A program made the position numbers and the translations under genes. Below the pieces are notes generated by a model. The model worked only from the letters and a program-made list of their open reading frames with translations. It made no database searches and was not told the origin of the DNA. Shown here piece after piece: positions 1 to 34,140 of a stretch of DNA of 50,244 nt. How positions within the stretch are numbered: position 1 is the stretch's first letter; each line of letters starts with the position of its first letter. The DNA lies in the NCBI GenBank assembly GCA_050692015.1, contig JBOGTE010000002.1, positions 1 to 50,244 of the forward strand, given 5' to 3'. This stretch comes from Candidatus Limnocylindria bacterium. Lineage in GTDB: Bacteria; Chloroflexota; Limnocylindria; P2-11E.

Positions 1-2
1 CG

Positions 3-201
3 CACGTCCCGCGCTACGCCGCCGCTCACGTGCCCCTCGTCGGCGAGGACGGCAACGCCTTCGCGATCCTCGGCCGCACACGCCGAGCGCTCAAGGCGGC
101 AGGCGCAAGCCGCGACGAGATCGACGCGTTAACGCGGGAGGCGACCGCCGGCGATCACGACCACCTGCTCGCTACCGTCATGCGCTGGGTCGACGCCGAA
201 T
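3..201 (+). CDS. Hypothetical protein, C-terminal fragment (5' end outside window)
   Basis: Frame 3 reads ...HVPLVGEDGNAFAILGRTRRALKAAGASRDEIDALTREATAGDHDHLLATVMRWVDAE, stop TGA at 199-201. The 4-nt ATGA overlap (198-201) with the next ORF implies translational coupling. Family not recognised. Confidence 0.45.
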
Positions 202-880
202 GAGAGAATCCAGGCACTCGATGGTCACGACGCTCACTGACCTGCAGGCTTACGGGGATGAGTTGGCCGCGCGCATCGACGCCGGCTTCAAGAGTCACCC
301 GGAGCTTCCCGACCACCGTAAGGAGCATCCCTGGCTAACGGGCTGGCTGGGCGATTCCCGCGCGAAAGTCTGGTTCGTCTCTGAGGCGGCCAGCGCCTGG
401 CGTGTGAACCGCGCGGATCCCAACGGCGACGGGCTCTTCACCGTCGAGAGCCAGTGGGCCGTGAGCCCCGGAGACAAGGTGTTCCGGGAAGCGCTGGCGA
501 AGGCAGGCTTCAAGGATCGCCCTGCCGATGGCCCGGGCGGCTGGCACTGCTACATGACGGTCCTCGCGAAGTCGCATATCCAGTACGCGGACCGTGATCA
601 CGAGCAGCGGCAACAGCTCTTCAAGCTGTGGGCGCCGGTCTTGGCCTGGGAGCTGGCCCAAGGGAGGCCGCCGGTCATCGCCGCGATGGGCTCGGCCACC
701 GCCAAGGCTCTGCGCATGCTGACCGAGCTCGGGCTCATCAAGATCCCGGGCAAGGTGGTCGAGATCTGGAACTACGGCTACCTCATGCGACCTGGGCCGA
801 AACAGACCCCGCCAATGGACCCGGCGCGCATCGCTGCGTACGAGGAGCAAGTGGCCGGGGTGGCGCGACTTGGCTTCTAG
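200..880 (+). CDS. Hypothetical protein, possibly UDG-superfamily-like fold with divergent motifs
   Basis: 226-aa ORF, ATGA-coupled to the upstream ORF. Segments VWFVSEAAS...KVFREALAKAGF...WHCYMTVLAKS...PPVIAAMGSATAKAL...VVEIWNYGY line up with the order of UDG family-4 elements (motif A GEAPG, aG-l helix, vyitNvvkC strand, vivaLG..A strand, motif B HPS), but the catalytic residues are not conserved. Inference only. Confidence 0.5.
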   Translation: MRESRHSMVTTLTDLQAYGDELAARIDAGFKSHPELPDHRKEHPWLTGWLGDSRAKVWFVSEAASAWRVNRADPNGDGLFTVESQWAVSPGDKVFREALAKAGFKDRPADGPGGWHCYMTVLAKSHIQYADRDHEQRQQLFKLWAPVLAWELAQGRPPVIAAMGSATAKALRMLTELGLIKIPGKVVEIWNYGYLMRPGPKQTPPMDPARIAAYEEQVAGVARLGF

Positions 881-1292
881 AGCGAAGAGCCCGGCCGAGG
901 TTGATGCTCTGCTCGCCAGCTTGCCGGCAGACCTGAGCACGCTCTTCGGTCGAGCAACGCCGCAGACCGGCTATTGCTGCTGGAAGGCAGGCCGAAGGAA
1001 CTGGCTGCAGTGGAACGACCCGGGCGACTCTGCGCGCAAGCAGCTGGAGAACACGCAGGGTGAGATGCGGAGCTGGGAGTTATTCGCGCGGTTCGCGCGC
1101 CAACCCAGCTCGGCGTGGGAGAAGCCGGCGAGATACGAGGCATGGAAGTGGATGCCTTCGGGTGACGACGTTTGGGGCTGCACGCGTGCCGGGTTGGTTG
1201 CGTTCCCCGGCGACATAGCCCAGCTCAAGGCGCGGCTGATCGCTGACCTCACCGCCTCCCACGATTACTCGCAAGGCGAGTACGGCTCCTGA
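870..1292 (+). CDS. Hypothetical Trp-rich protein (TTG start)
   Basis: 140-aa ORF from a TTG start overlapping the previous stop by 11 nt. Third-position GC is about 78% against about 62% overall, which supports coding. No family recognised. Confidence 0.35.
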   Translation: MASRAKSPAEVDALLASLPADLSTLFGRATPQTGYCCWKAGRRNWLQWNDPGDSARKQLENTQGEMRSWELFARFARQPSSAWEKPARYEAWKWMPSGDDVWGCTRAGLVAFPGDIAQLKARLIADLTASHDYSQGEYGS

Positions 1293-1404
1293 GCCGCGTT
1301 GCTCGCCGGCAGCGAACGCCTCACCACCTACCCGGTGCTGGCGTCAGCCCGACGATGCAGCGCGAGGCCGCCGCGGCCTTCGATGCGGTGCCCGGAGCGG
1401 AGCG

Positions 1405-2196
1405 ATGATCACCAGCCTCGGTCGTCAGGCCACGGCCCGTTCGCTTGATACTCGTCGGATGGACGAACCTCGAGACTTGACCGTGATCTTCGTCGCCGAG
1501 TCGTTCGTCTCCGACCTCTTTAATCCAAACGAATGGCCCGCTCCGACCAAAGACATCGTGTCATCCTGCGCCAGCGAGTTGACAGTTCTCAGGCATTCCG
1601 CCGTGCGAATCGGCGAACTATGCGCAAACCGCCAAGTGCTGACCGACGGATACGCGCGCTCCCTTGAGCAGCAATGGCGAGTGGGTCAGTGGGATTGGAC
1701 GCGGGCCACGTACTTCGCTCAGGTGCCCGAACTTCACCTCACCATCGAGGCCTTCTTCTCAAGCCTCAAGGCCCTGCTGGATCTCATCTCACAGATGTAC
1801 AGGAGTGAGGATGTGGTAACGCCTTCGCTCGACGGATTTCACCGGCAGGGCGCCGTCTATGGCGGCAAGGTACTCAACGTCTTGAAGAGGAACACTGTCA
1901 AAGGCCGAGAAGAGGTGGCGTCCGCGATCTCTGATGTCATTTTGGCCGCGAAGGCAGAGTGGATTGATGACGCGATTCAGGCACGGGACGACCTGGTGCA
2001 TCCCCCTCGAGGTGCCGGGCAGCTGATGTTTGTCCTGAGGCTTGCGGAGCTAGAAGGCCGCCTTGAGATCGTCGAGGTCCTGCCGCCGTCGATCGCGGGG
2101 ACGCCGATCGACGAGTACGCGATTCGCGGCGTGGAGCGAATGACATCGTTTGGCAGAGCAGTGCTTGACCTTCTGAAGCCCGAGAGGGCGGCTTGA
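1405..2196 (+). CDS. Hypothetical protein of foreign (lower-GC) origin with a C-terminal R-x4-H (HEPN-like) motif
   Basis: 263-aa ORF in a roughly 58% GC block against about 70% around it. GGAGCGGAGCG lies ahead of the ATG, and a 17-codon uORF overlaps the start by ATGA (1405-1408). The motif ARDDLVH near the C-terminus is an R-x4-H pattern. No Walker or other recognisable catalytic motif. Confidence 0.6.
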   Translation: MITSLGRQATARSLDTRRMDEPRDLTVIFVAESFVSDLFNPNEWPAPTKDIVSSCASELTVLRHSAVRIGELCANRQVLTDGYARSLEQQWRVGQWDWTRATYFAQVPELHLTIEAFFSSLKALLDLISQMYRSEDVVTPSLDGFHRQGAVYGGKVLNVLKRNTVKGREEVASAISDVILAAKAEWIDDAIQARDDLVHPPRGAGQLMFVLRLAELEGRLEIVEVLPPSIAGTPIDEYAIRGVERMTSFGRAVLDLLKPERAA

Positions 2197-2209
2197 GCGG
2201 CCCGCGCGA

Positions 2210-2230
2210 CTCCGGACCCTGTCCCCGGAG
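2210..2230 (+). terminator. GC-rich hairpin directly after the 1405-2196 ORF (possible terminator)
   Basis: CTCCGGACcctGTCC-CCGGAG forms a stem of about 10 bp and begins 14 nt after the TGA stop. The downstream T-tract is weak (ttgcgcg). Confidence 0.3.
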
Positions 2231-2355
2231 TTGCGCGATGATCCTGACCCCTGCGAGTACCCCAGTTGCACGGAACGGACCCCGACCCAGCGGTACGGAT
2301 CGGGCCGAGTCTCCCAATGTTGGGTCGCATCGGGACGCTGCGGACTCATCCGGTG

Positions 2356-2414
2356 ACGCCTTGAAAACCGCTGAGGCCGCAAGGCCTCCGTGGGTTCGAA
2401 TCCCACCCCCTCCG
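2356..2414 (+). other. tRNA-Ser(UGA) 3'-half fragment, putative attachment-site remnant of an integrated element
   Basis: Anticodon loop cTTGAAAa (UGA), a long variable arm GAGGCCgcaaGGCCTC, T-arm GTGGGttcgaatCCCAC and acceptor 3' strand CCCCTCC-G are all present. The matching 5' acceptor strand (GGAGGGG) and a D-arm are absent upstream, so this is not a complete tRNA. The 3' end resembles tRNA-Ser(GGA) at 49871-49953 but is not identical. Confidence 0.6.
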
Positions 2415-2541
2415 CAGTCTAGAAATGACGCGGAAGGCCCGCTCTTAACTGGAGAGGGCCAGAGCAAGCGAGTTAGGCGAGCCAGGCGCCGAAGGGAACC
2501 GTGACGTTAGTGAAGAGAACAAGCGCCGGGCGATCGACCTC

Positions 2542-3057
2542 ATGGGCGAAGAGTGCCGCGCGATCGAGGCGCTGTTCCGGTCGCTTTCAGCATCGCAGCT
2601 CGACCTTCCTGTCTTCGGCGAGGGCCAGGGCTGGCGGGTAAGGGACATCCCCGCACATCTCGCGCTCTGGCAGTGGGTCGCGACCCGGGTCGCCGAGAAG
2701 GTCAGCGAGCGTGGCCAGCTCCCTGACACGCCGGACTGGGACATCTGGGCGGGGATCGAGACGCCGACGGATGAGCTCAACGACGAGAACTTCCGCGACT
2801 GGAGGGATCGTCCGGTCGAGGACGCGCTGGGCCGTCTGGCGTACGTTCACGCCGAGATGATCCGTGCCGTCGAGCGATTGACGCCTGAACAGATCGCGTC
2901 CGGGACGGCGCTGCCCGATGAGCTTCAGCCGTTCTTGCGGGCGCCGGGCGTCAGGCACATCCGCGCGCATCGAAAGCAGATCGAGTCCGCCCTCGGCGGG
3001 ACCGAGATCCTGAGGGAGGGCGGCTCGGCCACGAGCCGTCCGTCGGGCGTCACTTAA
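2542..3057 (+). CDS. DinB/YfiT-like four-helix-bundle protein (ClbS/DfsB DUF1706-like or MDMPI_N-like)
   Basis: 171 aa. WRVRDIPAHLALWQW resembles the 'W-x-v-kD-vlaHL-x-W' signature of this superfamily. The size is typical (about 170 aa). Confidence 0.45.
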   Translation: MGEECRAIEALFRSLSASQLDLPVFGEGQGWRVRDIPAHLALWQWVATRVAEKVSERGQLPDTPDWDIWAGIETPTDELNDENFRDWRDRPVEDALGRLAYVHAEMIRAVERLTPEQIASGTALPDELQPFLRAPGVRHIRAHRKQIESALGGTEILREGGSATSRPSGVT

Positions 3058-3071
3058 CGTAGAATGACTGC

Positions 3072-3299
3072 ATGACCATTAAAATGACCGCTTCGGCCGC
3101 CAAGGCGAAGATCCTCTCCCTGCTCGACGACGTTTCCGCCGGCCAGGAGGTCGAGATAACCAAGCACGGCCGCGTGGTCGCGAGGCTAGTGCCGGCTACC
3201 GGGCCGCACGCTCTCAAGGGGGCCCTCGTCGGTGTCGCTATGACTGCTGACAAGGAAGAGGATCTGTTCGCCACCGGAGCGAGCTGGGACCTGCCATAA
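3072..3299 (+). CDS. Type II antitoxin, Phd/YefM family
   Basis: MTIKMTASAAKAKILSLLDDVSAGQEVEITKHGRVVARLVP is a textbook Phd/YefM N-terminus. TAGAAT lies 7 nt upstream of the ATG, so the transcript is probably leaderless. Confidence 0.85.
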   Translation: MTIKMTASAAKAKILSLLDDVSAGQEVEITKHGRVVARLVPATGPHALKGALVGVAMTADKEEDLFATGASWDLP

Positions 3300-3304
3300 G
3301 CACG

Positions 3305-3688
3305 GTCGTACTCGACAGCCACGTCGTCCACTGGTGGTCGGCCGAGCCCGCTCGGATCAGCGCCGCCGCCAGCAGGGCCATCAGCGGGGCGGATGAGCTC
3401 GCGGTCGCCGACATCTCGTGGTTCGAGCTCGCCTGGCTTGCTCGACATGAGCGGATCGTCGTGACGATCCCGATCACATACTGGCTTCGGCAGCTGGCAG
3501 CCCAGATCCACTCGATCCCCGTAACGCCGGCGATCGCGGCAACGGCGGTCGCCCTGCCATCGTCGTTCCCGGGGGATCCAGCCGATCGGCTGATCTACGC
3601 GACGGCGATCGAGAATGGTTGGCGGCTCATCACGAAAGACCGCGGGCTGCGCTCCCACCGCCACCCTCATCCCGTGGCCCTCTGGTAG
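3305..3688 (+). CDS. vapC: Type II toxin VapC (PIN domain). N-terminal boundary uncertain: no canonical start codon
   Basis: The frame reads VVLDSHVVHWW...ADISWFE...RLIYATAIENGWRLITKD, which has the PIN acidic residues. It stays open back to 3251, but the only in-frame start-like codons upstream of the conserved N-terminus are CTG (3284) and ATA (3296-98, ATAA-overlapping the antitoxin stop). The first GTG, at 3455, would delete the PIN N-terminus. Confidence 0.6.
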   Translation, partial: VVLDSHVVHWWSAEPARISAAASRAISGADELAVADISWFELAWLARHERIVVTIPITYWLRQLAAQIHSIPVTPAIAATAVALPSSFPGDPADRLIYATAIENGWRLITKDRGLRSHRHPHPVALW

Positions 3689-5318: not shown

Positions 5319-5630
5319 GTGCCACTGAAAAAGCGCCTCTCCGTCACGATCGACCCCGGGCTGCTCGCGGCCGGCCGAGTCGCGGTATCGCAAGGGCGCG
5401 CCGAGAATCTCAGCGCCTGGGTGAGCGAAGCGCTGCGCCGACAGATGGAGAACGACCGCCGTCTGGCGGCCCTCGACCGTGCCATCGGCGAGTACGAGGC
5501 GGAGCACGGCGTGATCACCGAGGAAGAGATGGATGAAGCCACACGCCGGCTTCGAGCGAGGGCCATCGTGATCCGCCCGTCGCCGAAACGGCGGACGGCC
5601 GCGGGCGGTCGCCGGCGGGGTGCCGCCTGA
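5319..5630 (+). CDS. Ribbon-helix-helix (CopG/VapB-like) antitoxin
   Basis: MPLKKRLSVTIDPGLLAAGRVAV...LSAWVSEALRRQ is an RHH N-terminus. The start is GTG, TATGGT lies 6 nt upstream (probably leaderless), and TGGCA/TGCCA repeats sit upstream. Confidence 0.7.
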   Translation: MPLKKRLSVTIDPGLLAAGRVAVSQGRAENLSAWVSEALRRQMENDRRLAALDRAIGEYEAEHGVITEEEMDEATRRLRARAIVIRPSPKRRTAAGGRRRGAA

Positions 5631-6118
5631 GCCTGGTCCTTGACGCGGGCGCGCTGGTCGCCCTGGAGCGCGGCGACCGGACCGTCATCGCGGCGGTCAA
5701 GAAGGAGCGATCCGGGGGCCGCTTCCCGGTGACCCACGGAGGGGTCGTCGGACAAGTCTGGCGAGGCGGCCGCGGACGCCAGGCGCGGCTCGCCAGCTTC
5801 CTACCCGGCTTCGACGTCCGTGCCCTCGACCGAGATCTCGGCCTTAGGGCGGGCGTCCTGCTGGGCAGAGCTGGCAGCGCCGACGTGATCGATGCCGCGC
5901 TTGTCGTCCTGGCCAAAGATGGCGACGAGATCCTGACCTCGGATCCCGAGGACCTGCGCGATCTGGCGATGGCCGCGAGCGCTCACGTTGAGCTGACGCC
6001 GGTCCAGACATCGCGCCGAGCGGCGGCTCGATCCCGCGCCCCGCGTCGACCGTCCGGTGCTACTGATCGATCTCCGCTACGGTCGGCGCGGTGGGGCACC
6101 CCTTCCGCATCGGCGTGA
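5627..6118 (+). CDS. vapC: VapC-like PIN toxin. The only start-like codon is CTG overlapping the antitoxin stop (CTGA)
   Basis: The frame reads LSLVLDAGALVALERGD...VIDAALVVLAKDGDEILTSDPEDLRDLA, PIN-like. There is no ATG, GTG or TTG in frame between the upstream stop (5534) and 5729. Confidence 0.55.
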   Translation: MSLVLDAGALVALERGDRTVIAAVKKERSGGRFPVTHGGVVGQVWRGGRGRQARLASFLPGFDVRALDRDLGLRAGVLLGRAGSADVIDAALVVLAKDGDEILTSDPEDLRDLAMAASAHVELTPVQTSRRAAARSRAPRRPSGATDRSPLRSARWGTPSASA

Positions 6119-33276: not shown

Positions 33277-33349
33277 GGCCCCGTAGCTCAGCGGATAAAG
33301 CAACGGACTTCGAATCCGTGATCGGGAGTTCGATTCTCCCCGGGGCCGC
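33277..33349 (+). tRNA. tRNA-Arg (anticodon TCG)
   Basis: Acceptor GGCCCCG/CGGGGCC, anticodon loop cTTCGAa, T-loop GAGTTCGATTCTC. Confidence 0.85.
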
Positions 33350-33391
33350 CGAAGTCCGCGCCTCGACCACCCGACCGCTAGAATGGACTGC

Positions 33392-33464
33392 GAGCCCGTA
33401 GCTCAGCGGATAGAGCACGACGCTACGGACGTCGGGGTCGCAGGTTCGATTCCTGTCGGGCTCG
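33392..33464 (+). tRNA. tRNA-Arg (anticodon ACG)
   Basis: Acceptor GAGCCCG/CGGGCTC, anticodon loop cTACGGa, T-loop GGTTCGATTCC. TAGAAT lies 7 nt upstream. Confidence 0.85.
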
Positions 33465-34140
33465 CTGCTTCTCTACTGTCCATAGCGTCCCAAGGTCGAG
33501 GACCGGACCAGTTGCCTGGGTCTTCGAGCACCGTCAACGCGAGTCGCCGGCGATGTGTCGCGCGACGATGATCGTTCGCACAGCGCACCTCGCACTTCGC
33601 GATCTCGTCGAGGATCCGTTGCCACGGGTGCCCGTTGTGGACCAGTGTGCTGACATCGGCTGTCTTATCGCGAATGTGGTCGAAGTCGAGGACAATCGGA
33701 TCGTTCTCGCCGCAATCGACACAAGGATGTTCGGCCAGGTACTCCCGGATCAGACGTAGGTTCCGCTCGACATAGATCCTCTGGTTACGGCGGATCCGCA
33801 CCATCTGGGTATCGTGAAGACGCTGATGGCGTTCCGCGTTGTACGCGGCGATGCACGCCCTGCACCACGACTGCAACACGCTCGATCCACGGAACCGCCG
33901 CTGAAACGCTTCTGCCGGCTTCATCTCAGCGCAACGCCGGCAGGGGTACATCTCGCGTCGACCGATCACACGGGTCGAGCGGGAGGGGTTGACCGACCAG
34001 GGCCACCGCGCCCGCTGGTAGTCGCGCCGGCAGCTGCTGCACGTACTCCTGCGCCGACCGGTGTCCGCGCGGAGATCGAACTCATCCACCGGCTTGACCT
34101 CGCCGCATGAACGGCATCTCTGAACTGCGACATCGTCCAT
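33403..34140 (-). CDS. HNH-type endonuclease-like protein with N-terminal Cys-x2-Cys zinc-ribbon repeats (low-GC, likely mobile-element remnant)
   Basis: C-x2-C pairs (CRSCGEV...CSSCRRD, CRRCAEM...CRACIAAY) followed by HPCVDCGENDPIVLDFDHIRDK...VRCANDH (HNH C-x2-C...DH...N...C-x-N-x-H). Local GC about 55%. The last roughly 20 codons overlap tRNA-Arg(ACG) on the opposite strand, so the true C-terminus is uncertain. Confidence 0.6.
   Translation of the reverse strand: MDDVAVQRCRSCGEVKPVDEFDLRADTGRRRSTCSSCRRDYQRARWPWSVNPSRSTRVIGRREMYPCRRCAEMKPAEAFQRRFRGSSVLQSWCRACIAAYNAERHQRLHDTQMVRIRRNQRIYVERNLRLIREYLAEHPCVDCGENDPIVLDFDHIRDKTADVSTLVHNGHPWQRILDEIAKCEVRCANDHRRATHRRRLALTVLEDPGNWSGPRPWDAMDSREAASPTGIEPATPTSVASCSIR

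What the first reader, a model, noticed from the sequence alone, without database searches (positions are those of the whole stretch)
1405..2196. Foreign 263-aa orphan gene with an R-x4-H (HEPN-like) motif at the island tip: candidate defence/abortive-infection effector
This is the lowest-GC gene in the window. Third-position GC is about 65% against 90% or more for neighbouring genes, so it looks recently acquired. It has no Walker, HTH or other recognisable motif, but carries ARDDLVH (R-x4-H) in the C-terminal third, the hallmark of HEPN RNases (Abi_2/AbiD-F, AbiU2, RnlA and similar). It is followed by a GC-rich hairpin, preceded by an ATGA-overlapping 17-codon uORF, and sits at the att-proximal tip of the element. 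Island tips are where phage-defence cargo typically accumulates.
Basis: partly seen in the sequence, partly recalled or inferred. Interest (0 to 1): 0.65.

Follow-up and report, generated by a model that had tools for sequence, protein, structure and literature searches.

The report
Unannotated stand-alone HEPN RNase gene family
The low-GC gene at 1405-2196 is not an orphan: it belongs to a rare, widely scattered and so far unannotated family of about 240-residue proteins with the fold and invariant catalytic motif of HEPN RNases, so it is probably a horizontally acquired RNA-cutting toxin or defence gene, although a defence role is not shown.

Summary

No Pfam, NCBIfam, PADLOC or PHROG model covers the protein. 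Weak HEPN_Apea hits are confined to the motif, and a profile-profile comparison with ApeA is not significant.

Across about 110 homologous loci in at least 10 phyla the gene has no conserved partner. It is lower in GC than its flanks in 44 of 47 loci. Its neighbours are a mix of housekeeping genes and defence, toxin-antitoxin or mobile genes.

In the window it is the last gene before a tRNA-Ser 3' fragment (2360-2416), a likely att remnant.

The HEPN RNase assignment is well supported. The defence or abortive-infection role is plausible but unproven.

The parts
1405..2196 (+). Coding sequence of the stand-alone HEPN-like protein. It is 263 aa from the ATG at 1405. Alternative starts are the ATG at 1459 (245 aa, favoured by homologue N-termini) and the TTG at 1477 (239 aa, the NCBI call).
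   Evidence: ORF list. Identical to NCBI MAG protein P0001. 130 homologous cluster representatives. GC 59.8% and GC3 71.2%. AF2 model with pLDDT 95.4.
1984..2001 (+). Predicted catalytic motif R194-D-D-L-V-H199 (R170 and H175 in 239-aa numbering), at the C-terminal end of core helix 3.
   Evidence: R and H are invariant in 65/65 aligned sequences and kept in 106/108 representatives. The residue after R is D 58, N 4, H 3. Helix 145-174 ends at the motif.
1768..1782 (+). K122-x3-D126 (K98 and D102 in 239-aa numbering) in core helix 2. This is the predicted auxiliary active-site acidic residue.
   Evidence: D is kept in 108/108 and K in 105/108 representatives. It lies in helix 84-110 of the model. 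HEPN families typically have a conserved acidic residue in helix 2 (PMC3710099).
2204..2236 (+). GC-rich hairpin 8 nt after the stop codon (12-bp stem, 9-nt loop, no U-tract). It is a possible terminator or mRNA-stabilising stem.
   Evidence: RNA fold of 2180-2300: -52 kcal/mol, z = -3.0. The terminator scan did not call it because it lacks a T-run.
2360..2416 (+). tRNA-Ser-type 3' fragment (anticodon loop CTTGAAA, variable arm, T-arm, acceptor 3' strand). It is a likely attR remnant of an element lying to its left.
   Evidence: ARAGORN does not call it. The T-arm and acceptor match the window's tRNA-Ser(GGA) except for one base. The opposite strand hits an Rfam family (Plastid-psbl-rps4 3'UTR), which I take, from my own knowledge, to lie antisense to a plastid tRNA-Ser gene. 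It occurs once in the window. No 5' acceptor strand is visible upstream.
1355..1408 (+). 17-codon ORF overlapping the ATG at 1405 as ATGA. It is present but probably not functional.
   Evidence: Sequence read directly. Homology starts at residues 19-38 of the 263-aa reading.
3..203 (+). Context: the 3' part of a small phage-type gene, cut by the contig start. It is the only direct sign that the left stub is phage-derived.
   Evidence: phrog_1933 at E 3.7e-21. tblastn matches in 211 phage records.

Best explanation
The gene encodes a stand-alone member of the HEPN superfamily of metal-independent endoribonucleases. It belongs to a family with no model in Pfam, NCBIfam, PADLOC or PHROGs.

Shown:
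- The family exists, with 130 representatives.
- R, H, D and K are almost invariant.
- The predicted fold is a four-helix core. Helix 1 is residues 24-50, helix 2 is 84-110 and carries K98/D102, and helix 3 is 145-174 and ends in R170-D-x3-H175. A beta-hairpin insert follows at 185-202, then helix 4 at 211-233. A conserved GFH...GG insert lies between helices 2 and 3.
- The gene is compositionally foreign and has no conserved partner gene.

Inferred from established HEPN biochemistry:
- Two subunits dimerise so that their R-x4-H motifs form one composite active site.
- His activates the ribose 2'-OH, and Arg and Asp stabilise the transition state.
- RNA is cut to leave a 2',3'-cyclic phosphate. 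The target is most likely tRNA anticodon loops or mRNA.

Inferred from context:
- The gene is cargo of a mobile element, here the last gene before a tRNA-Ser att remnant.
- It acts as a growth-arresting effector in a conflict role: single-gene abortive-infection or anti-phage defence, or addiction.
- With no antitoxin partner, its activity would have to be held in check by the protein's own conserved non-catalytic parts. These are the N-terminal FNPNxW...SC segment, the GFH/GG insert and the hairpin. This last step is speculation.
For: - Family: an exhaustive phmmer scan gave 130 hits at E<=1e-3, 89 at <=1e-10 and 49 at <=1e-30, mostly 230-260 aa.
- Motifs: K98, D102, F121, R170 and H175 are invariant in 65 sequences. 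The residue after R is D/N/H. R and H are kept in 106/108 unbiased representatives and D102 in 108/108.
- Structure: pLDDT 95.4 and pTM 0.91, with R170 at the end of helix 145-174 and H175 just after it. This is where PMC3710099 places Rx4-6H, along with N/D/H after R, an acidic residue in helix 2 and inserts between helices 2 and 3.
- Pfam: 10 of 65 members give sub-threshold HEPN_Apea hits (best 8.3e-5) and 2 give HEPN_Swt1. In the two members scanned individually (P0104, P0105) the matched stretch falls on the motif helix.
- Mobility: the gene is lower in GC than its flanks in 44/47 dereplicated loci, median -7.3 points, p = 2e-8. It is scattered over at least 10 phyla.
- Decay: frameshifted or truncated copies occur (L014, L015, L002/L005).
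- Context: some neighbours are TIR/ThsB-like, PD-T4-6-like kinase, PDC-M14A, PDC-S45, PDC-S15, HNH or integrase genes, and one locus is a HicAB/BrnTA/ParE/PemK island.
- Window: a phage-type gene at 3-203 and a tRNA-Ser fragment at 2360-2416.
Against: - No curated HEPN model reaches its threshold on any member tested. The target itself has no Pfam hit even at E<=1.
- Foldseek against PDB finds nothing significant, with best E 0.75.
- Many homologues sit among housekeeping genes: panC/panD, SDR, Amt/P-II, SerRS and TopA.
- No neighbour family recurs in more than 2 of 148 neighbours, and defence enrichment was not quantified.
- The family was not found in GenBank phages, PLSDB plasmids or IMG/VR.
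- How a partner-less toxin would be controlled is unknown.
- Dimerisation, RNase activity and the target were not tested.
Confidence: 0.55

Rival explanations
1. It is the toxin of an addiction or toxin-antitoxin module that stabilises the mobile element. The antitoxin would be unrecognised: a small protein, an antisense or upstream RNA as in AbiF-type type III systems, or the upstream 140-aa ORF at 870-1292.
For: - HEPN toxins commonly work in TA pairs such as HepT-MNT, or AbiF with an RNA antitoxin (DARNA preprint).
- One homologue lies in an island of HicAB, BrnTA, ParE and PemK modules.
- In L004 an upstream gene overlaps the family gene by 4 nt.
- The copy in the window is co-directional with the upstream 140-aa ORF.
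Against: - No neighbour is conserved across 112 loci. BLAST clusters hold at most 5 loci, and those are near-identical genomes. At most 2 of 148 neighbours share a Pfam or PADLOC family.
- The window's upstream ORFs have no homologues next to other family members.
- There are no tandem-repeat arrays upstream in the window or consistently in homologue flanks.
- Antitoxins under 40-60 aa and non-repetitive RNAs were not excluded.
Confidence: 0.2
2. It is an accessory RNA-processing or stress-response RNase with a physiological role, such as RNA turnover, rather than a conflict role.
For: - Many loci place the gene among housekeeping genes on the same strand: 70 of 87 upstream and 74 of 99 downstream neighbours are co-directional.
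- HEPN domains such as Las1, Swt1 and Ire1/RNase L do process cellular RNAs (PMC3710099).
- Two members have weak HEPN_Swt1 hits.
Against: - Distribution is very patchy. The stringent DNA pattern found 21 loci, from about 20 of the 185,579 species genomes, all of them environmental MAGs.
- The GC deficit relative to flanks is consistent.
- Pseudogenised copies occur.
- There is no conserved synteny.
Confidence: 0.12
3. It is a helical protein with a non-enzymatic role, for example a ligand- or protein-binding four-helix bundle. The R...H pair would be conserved for structure or binding rather than catalysis.
For: - Foldseek finds no significant match.
- Profile-profile comparison with ApeA is not significant.
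- Some HEPN domains are non-catalytic binding modules (PMC3710099).
Against: - According to PMC3710099, non-catalytic HEPN domains have typically lost Rx4-6H.
- Here R, the polar residue after it, H and the helix-2 Asp are all under near-absolute conservation, while mean column identity is only 24%.
Confidence: 0.08

Closest known systems
ApeA (single-gene HEPN anti-phage protein; Pfam PF18739 HEPN_Apea; Ec1ApeA WP_000706972.1; Ec2ApeA WP_032180471.1, of which WP_072664300.1 is the copy compared here)
   Same: - Both are stand-alone genes with no linked partner.
- Both carry an R-[N/D]-x3-H motif at the end of core helix 3 of a diverged HEPN domain of about 250 aa with an insertion between helices 3 and 4.
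- Both are carried as cargo of mobile elements. Ec2ApeA sits in a P2-like prophage and Ec1ApeA lies between IS2 and a MobQ relaxase.
- The only recurring Pfam signal in the family is HEPN_Apea (10/65 members).
- hhalign against Ec2ApeA places RDxLxHP on R502-NLIV-H507, though without significance.
   Different: - ApeA is about 580-600 aa, with N-terminal and Mid domains that form the deoxydinucleotide-binding pocket and the decamer contacts (preprint 10.64898/2026.01.26.701840). This family is about 240 aa and lacks both domains.
- No Pfam hit reaches the gathering score (20.9 bits in the one member whose score was listed, against a cut-off of 24.4).
- There is no PADLOC hit at E<=1.
- The profile-profile comparison with 33 ApeA HEPN regions gives Prob 0.4%, E 0.15 and an out-of-register alignment.
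HepT / minimal HEPN toxins of HEPN-MNT (type VII) toxin-antitoxin systems (PDB 5yep, 7ae2, 8xdj)
   Different: - HepT is about 130 aa and always sits next to an MNT nucleotidyltransferase antitoxin that AMPylates it.
- This family is twice as long, with an N-terminal segment, a helix 2-helix 3 insert and a beta-hairpin.
- It has no recurrent neighbour of any kind.
Abi_2 / AbiD-AbiF, AbiU2, RnlA/LsoA
   Same: All are HEPN-superfamily RNases used in abortive infection, and several are carried by mobile elements.
   Different: - None of these Pfam families matches the target at E<=1.
- None appears among the 25 families that most of the 65 members match at E<=1; 7 further families, each matched by a single member, were not listed.
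- No AbiF-like upstream RNA repeat array is present.
DARNA (PD-T7-3) and other HEPN single-protein defences
   Different: DARNA is 456 aa, with an N-terminal HEPN domain and a large C-terminal ssDNA-sensing domain. There was no PADLOC hit for the target.

Membership tests
HEPN superfamily | Conserved Rx4-6H motif, with a polar residue (mostly N, D or H) immediately after R | tested here: met
   R-D-D-L-V-H lies at residues 194-199. R and H are 65/65 in alignment A2 and 106/108 among all representatives covering the site. The next residue is D 58, N 4, H 3. Criterion from PMC3710099.
HEPN superfamily | Motif located at the end of core helix 3 and the start of the helix 3-helix 4 loop of an up-down four-helix bundle | tested here: met
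   In the AF2 model (pLDDT 95.4) helix 145-174 ends at R170 and H175 is the first residue after it. The long helices are 24-50, 84-110, 145-174 and 211-233.
HEPN superfamily | Second conserved acidic residue in helix 2 (typically Ex3[KR]) | tested here: met
   D102 is invariant (108/108) and K98 is kept in 105/108. They form Kx3D in helix 84-110, which is the reverse order of the usual Ex3K.
HEPN superfamily | Structural similarity to solved HEPN domains | tested here: inconclusive
HEPN superfamily | Significant sequence-profile match to a curated HEPN family | tested here: not met
   The target has no Pfam hit at E<=1. Members give only sub-threshold hits: HEPN_Apea in 10/65 (best 8.3e-5; 20.9 bits against a cut-off of 24.4 in the member checked) and HEPN_Swt1 in 2/65.
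HEPN superfamily | Metal-independent endoribonuclease activity dependent on R and H | not testable with these tools
   This needs biochemistry.
ApeA (PF18739 / PADLOC ApeA) | Profile match to the ApeA HEPN domain | tested here: not met
   There is no PADLOC hit at E<=1. Pfam hits are below the gathering score. hhalign of A2 against the 33-sequence ApeA HEPN alignment A5 gives Prob 0.4%, E 0.15.
ApeA (PF18739 / PADLOC ApeA) | Three-domain architecture (N-terminal, Mid, HEPN; about 580 aa) with a ligand pocket between the N-terminal and HEPN domains | tested here: not met
   Family members are mostly 230-260 aa, and the whole length is taken up by the HEPN-like fold. ApeA architecture is from the preprint.
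HepT-MNT (type VII TA) | Adjacent MNT nucleotidyltransferase antitoxin gene | tested here: not met
   No neighbour family recurs in more than 2 of 148 dereplicated +-1/+-2 neighbours. None is adjacent in the window.
Abi_2 / AbiD-F (PF07751), AbiU2, RnlA | Profile match to the family model | tested here: not met
   None of these models matches the target at E<=1, and none is among the 25 most-matched families listed for the 65 members. There is no PADLOC hit.
AbiF-like type III TA | Upstream tandem-repeat RNA antitoxin | tested here: not met
   TRF finds no repeats in window 1-3000. There is no consistent repeat array in 600 nt upstream or 400 nt downstream of the family gene in the loci where it was found.
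tRNA-integrated genomic island / prophage | Direct repeat of a tRNA 3' end at both borders, plus an integrase next to the intact tRNA | tested here: inconclusive
   One border is present: the tRNA-Ser 3' fragment at 2360-2416. The other border, the integrase and the intact tRNA-Ser(UGA) would lie beyond the contig start. The only phage-like gene is at 3-203. The ORFs at 200-880 and 870-1292 have no phage matches.

The most novel reading that the evidence does not exclude
This is a new minimal class of single-gene anti-phage system: a protein of about 240 aa that is almost entirely one HEPN domain. It has no separate sensor domain and no antitoxin. Its own conserved embellishments (N-terminal FNPNxW...SC segment, GFH...GG insert, beta-hairpin) would form the trigger-sensing or auto-inhibitory switch that releases a tRNA- or mRNA-cleaving activity on infection.
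Probability: 0.3. Interest if true: 0.55.

Novelty: new variant of a known kind. Interest (0 to 1): 0.4.

Why it matters
HEPN RNases are the effectors of Cas13, Csm6, RNase L, ApeA, DARNA and many toxin-antitoxin systems. How each is kept silent and then triggered is the open question in that field.

This family is absent from Pfam, NCBIfam, PADLOC and PHROGs. The word-indexed search of 5.8 billion proteins found only the gene itself. It comes almost only from uncultured environmental lineages. It appears to be a partner-less HEPN protein with no sensor domain. If it is active and conditionally toxic, it would be one of the smallest self-contained HEPN switches, and a compact model for auto-inhibition.

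If it is only one more toxin family, the result is still useful as an annotation: a profile (alignment A2) that turns about 130 clusters of 'hypothetical proteins' into predicted RNases.

Tried and rejected
- **Word-indexed homology search.** It found only the gene itself, and a profile run found 8 proteins. These results are misleading. The exhaustive scan was needed.
- **Single-sequence AF2.** It was useless, with pLDDT 38.6.
- **The search for related loci.** I replaced it with a hand-made degenerate DNA pattern for WID..[IV]..RD.L.HP. All 21 genome hits and 90 of the 97 metagenome hits turned out to be true family members.
- **Viral contigs.** The strict pattern gave 0 hits. A relaxed pattern gave 2 hits, and both were chance matches.
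- **tblastn against GenBank phages and PLSDB plasmids.** No match.
- **afdb50 fold search.** The library was unavailable.
- **Foldseek against PDB and BFVD.** Nothing significant.
- **PDB sequence and profile searches.** Only noise.
- **Conserved partner gene.** Rejected.
- **RNA antitoxin repeats.** Rejected.
- **Integron attC reading of the hairpin.** Rejected by eye. The stem sequence GTTGCGC does not fit GTTRRRY.
- **ApeA relationship.** I recovered the Ec1 and Ec2 ApeA genes from E. coli genomes using the preprint's cloned DNA. I then built a 33-sequence HEPN_ApeA alignment. hhalign was not significant.
- **The look-up of encoding contigs for the window protein.** Not on record.
Full report
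**1. The observation**

The ORF at 1405-2196 (+) exists and is 263 aa from the first ATG. It is identical to an NCBI-annotated hypothetical protein of a 'Candidatus Limnocylindria bacterium' MAG. The record's longest contig is 50,244 bp, the same length as the window, so the window is evidently the whole contig. NCBI starts the protein at the TTG at 1477, giving 239 aa.

Composition:
- Its GC content is 59.8%, the lowest of any plausible gene. The 1501-2000 bin is 58.2%, against 65-77% elsewhere.
- GC3 is 71.2%. The mean over ORFs with a coding-like GC3 pattern is 90% (sd 7), and the two flanking genes are at 84-85%.

Local features:
- ARDDLVH is at residues 193-199 (nt 1981-2001). By itself it is weak evidence. 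With 23 Arg and 4 His, about 0.34 R-x4-H matches are expected by chance, and 0.03 if the residue after R must be N, D or H.
- The hairpin is real: 2204-2236, 12-bp stem, 9-nt loop, z = -3.0 for the 121-nt region. It has no U-tract.
- The 17-codon ORF at 1355-1408 overlapping ATGA is present.

**2. Not an orphan**

The word-indexed search returned only the gene itself. An exhaustive phmmer scan of 1.84 billion cluster representatives found 130 proteins at E<=1e-3, 89 at <=1e-10 and 49 at <=1e-30. Most are 230-260 aa, and the best is 47% identical.

Homology starts at query residues 19-38. Several homologues have their own residues 1-3 aligned to query residues 19-20. The ATG at 1459 (245 aa) is therefore the most parsimonious start, although the ATG at 1405 has the better Shine-Dalgarno-like GGAG, 7 nt upstream (read from the sequence). 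Residues 1-18 are essentially unconserved; only one weak hit (P0078) aligns back to residue 12. The ATGA-coupled uORF is probably without function.

**3. What the family looks like**

In a 65-sequence alignment with 24% mean column identity, only five columns are invariant: K98, D102, F121, R170 and H175 (239-aa numbering; add 24 for the 263-aa reading).
- The residue after R170 is D in 58 sequences, N in 4 and H in 3.
- Among all 130 representatives, aligned without regard to the motif, 106 of the 108 that cover the site keep both R and H. D102 is kept in 108/108 and K98 in 105/108.
- Other strongly conserved positions are an N-terminal FNPNxW...SC segment, H87, G120-F121-H122, G129-G130, W162-I163-D164 and P204.

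AlphaFold2 gave no usable model with a single sequence (pLDDT 38.6). With the alignment it gave pLDDT 95.4 and pTM 0.91. The model has these elements:
- long helices at 24-50, 84-110, 145-174 and 211-233;
- a short helical insert between the second and third long helices;
- a beta-hairpin at 185-202 between the third and fourth.

R170 lies at the end of helix 145-174, and H175 is the first residue after it. K98 and D102 lie in helix 84-110.

**4. Comparison with the HEPN definition**

Anantharaman et al. 2013 (PMC3710099) list these features of the HEPN superfamily:
- Rx4-6H is the most conserved feature.
- The residue after R is mostly N, D or H.
- Many families have a second conserved acidic residue in helix 2.
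- Inserts between helices 2 and 3 are frequent.

Every one of these is met here.

Structural searches:
- Foldseek against PDB and BFVD finds nothing significant.

Sequence libraries:
- The target has no hit in Pfam, NCBIfam, PHROGs or PADLOC.
- Of the 65 family members, 10 give sub-threshold HEPN_Apea hits (best 8.3e-5) and 2 give HEPN_Swt1. In the two members scanned individually (P0104 and P0105) the matched stretch falls on the helix ending in the motif.

I conclude that this is a HEPN-superfamily protein, with confidence about 0.8. It belongs to a family that none of the four profile libraries searched here covers.

**5. Is it ApeA?**

ApeA is the known single-gene HEPN defence and the source of the only recurring Pfam signal. 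I recovered the Ec1ApeA and Ec2ApeA genes from complete E. coli genomes, using the cloned DNA given in the supplement of preprint 10.64898/2026.01.26.701840. I then collected 35 relatives of the Ec2ApeA HEPN region and aligned 33 sequences.

- hhalign of the family profile against Ec2ApeA alone places IDxxIxxRDxLxHP on I495...R502-NLIV-H507. That is the ApeA catalytic motif, but E is 0.29.
- Against the ApeA profile the result is Prob 0.4% and E 0.15, with an out-of-register alignment.
- ApeA also has N-terminal and Mid domains that build its ligand pocket and decamer. This family lacks both.

It is therefore not an ApeA member. The resemblance is at the level of the superfamily and the lifestyle: stand-alone and carried on mobile elements.

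**6. Genomic context of homologues**

A degenerate DNA pattern for WID..[IV]..RD.L.HP found 21 loci in GTDB species genomes. All are environmental MAGs, spread over:
- Chloroflexota, including Dehalococcoidia
- Beta-, Gamma- and Deltaproteobacteria, including Desulfarculaceae
- Acidobacteriota
- Aminicenantia
- Nitrospirales
- Planctomycetota, including Brocadia
- Clostridia

All 21 contain a true family member. The same pattern found 97 metagenome loci, 90 of them true. The pattern catches only about a third of the family.

No neighbour is conserved:
- BLAST clusters of neighbours hold at most 5 loci, and those come from near-identical genomes.
- Among 148 dereplicated +-1/+-2 neighbours, no Pfam or PADLOC family occurs more than twice.

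The neighbours are mixed.
- Housekeeping: panC/panD, SDR, ammonium transporter/P-II, seryl-tRNA synthetase, topoisomerase I and acyl-CoA ligase.
- Conflict or mobile:
  - TIR/ThsB-like or PDC-S66 (L012, L006);
  - a PD-T4-6/mad6-like kinase (L017);
  - a PDC-M14A-like gene overlapping the family gene by 4 nt, plus an integrase (L004);
  - HNH_5 (L021) and PDC-S45 trypsin-like (L116);
  - PDC-S15 and FRG (two neighbours each), and PIN_12;
  - one 12.6-kb contig full of HicAB, BrnTA, ParE and PemK modules (L121).

I could not compute a proper defence-enrichment statistic, because the family-library searches were exhausted.

Two family-wide properties point to mobility and dispensability:
- The gene is lower in GC than its flanks in 44 of 47 dereplicated loci (median -7.3 points, Wilcoxon p = 2e-8).
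- Several copies are frameshifted or truncated.

The family was not found in GenBank phages, PLSDB plasmids or IMG/VR at the sensitivities used. No tandem-repeat RNA-antitoxin-like arrays flank the genes.

**7. The local element**

Downstream of the gene, at 2360-2416 (+), lies a tRNA-Ser-type fragment. It comprises the anticodon loop CTTGAAA (anticodon UGA by position), the variable arm, the T-arm and the acceptor 3' strand. It matches the window's tRNA-Ser(GGA) T-arm and acceptor except for one base. It has no 5' acceptor strand and ARAGORN does not call it.

A lone 3' fragment on the + strand implies, by the standard geometry of tRNA-targeted integration, an element on its left. The HEPN gene would then be the last gene before attR. 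The rest of the element lies beyond the contig start.

The only positive phage signal in the 2.4-kb stub is the truncated small gene at 3-203 (phrog_1933, E 3.7e-21; 211 phage records). The weakly UDG-like ORF at 200-880 and the 140-aa ORF at 870-1292 have no phage matches. 'Island tip' is therefore plausible but unproven.

**8. Mechanism**

- *Shown:* family, motifs, fold, solo status and compositional foreignness.
- *Inferred from HEPN biochemistry (PMC3710099):* homodimerisation forms a composite active site from two R-x4-H motifs. Cleavage is metal-independent and leaves a 2',3'-cyclic phosphate. The likely targets are tRNA anticodon loops or mRNA.
- *Inferred from context:* a conflict role, meaning abortive-infection defence or addiction.
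- *Speculative:* the conserved non-catalytic elements act as a built-in switch, because there is no partner gene and no sensor domain.

**9. Verdict**

- 'Orphan', the Abi_2/AbiU2/RnlA comparison and the uORF do not hold up.
- The defence function is not demonstrated.
- This is an unannotated family within a well-known superfamily. It is of moderate interest, and its main attraction is as a minimal partner-less HEPN protein.

Noticed in passing
window 3072-3299 (+) and 3461-3688 (+): A 75-aa ORF reads like a Phd/YefM-type antitoxin (MTIKMTASAAKAKILSLLDDVSAGQEVEITKHGRVVARLVP...). It is followed by a 75-aa piece that looks like the C-terminal half of a PIN/VapC toxin, possibly a frameshifted toxin gene. 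This was judged by eye only.
   Followed up: no
window 5319-5630 (+) and 5729-6118 (+): A second apparent toxin-antitoxin pair: a ribbon-helix-helix-like 103-aa ORF followed by a PIN-like 129-aa ORF. The chromosomal side of the att-like site therefore also carries TA-type genes. This was judged by eye only.
   Followed up: no
window 33277-34140: A second low-GC patch (GC 63%, GC3 73%) lies directly after two tRNA-Arg genes (33277-33350, 33392-33465). On the minus strand it holds a 245-aa ORF with Cys-rich zinc-ribbon-like repeats and an HNH-like 'DFDHIRDK...CANDH' motif. Its 3' end overlaps the second tRNA-Arg. It may be another small insertion at a tRNA.
   Followed up: partly
window 200-880 (+): A 226-aa ORF has a weak uracil-DNA-glycosylase-superfamily match (PF03167, E 1e-4, below the gathering score). 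It has no phage homologue by tblastn, and its role in the element stub is unknown.
   Followed up: partly
L004 4232-5985: In a Betaproteobacteria MAG the family gene overlaps by 4 nt a 330-aa upstream gene that matches the PADLOC candidate PDC-M14A (E 1e-15). Before that is a 1254-aa protein with no Pfam hit, and an integrase follows. This may be a lineage-specific multi-gene arrangement that includes the HEPN protein.
   Followed up: partly
L123 (E. coli JNQH497, NZ_CP091925.1 3055016-3056767) and L124 (E. coli 504211): Ec2ApeA is annotated only as 'hypothetical protein' in RefSeq and sits between the baseplate and tail-morphogenesis genes of a P2-like prophage. Ec1ApeA is annotated as apeA and lies between an IS2 transposase and a MobQ relaxase.
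   Followed up: partly
L121 1-12616: A metagenome contig carries a truncated (169-aa) family member inside a dense run of small same-strand cassettes: DUF4160/DUF2442, HicAB, BrnTA, ParE/RHH and PemK/RHH. The layout is reminiscent of a chromosomal integron cassette array or a TA island. attC sites were not searched for.
   Followed up: no
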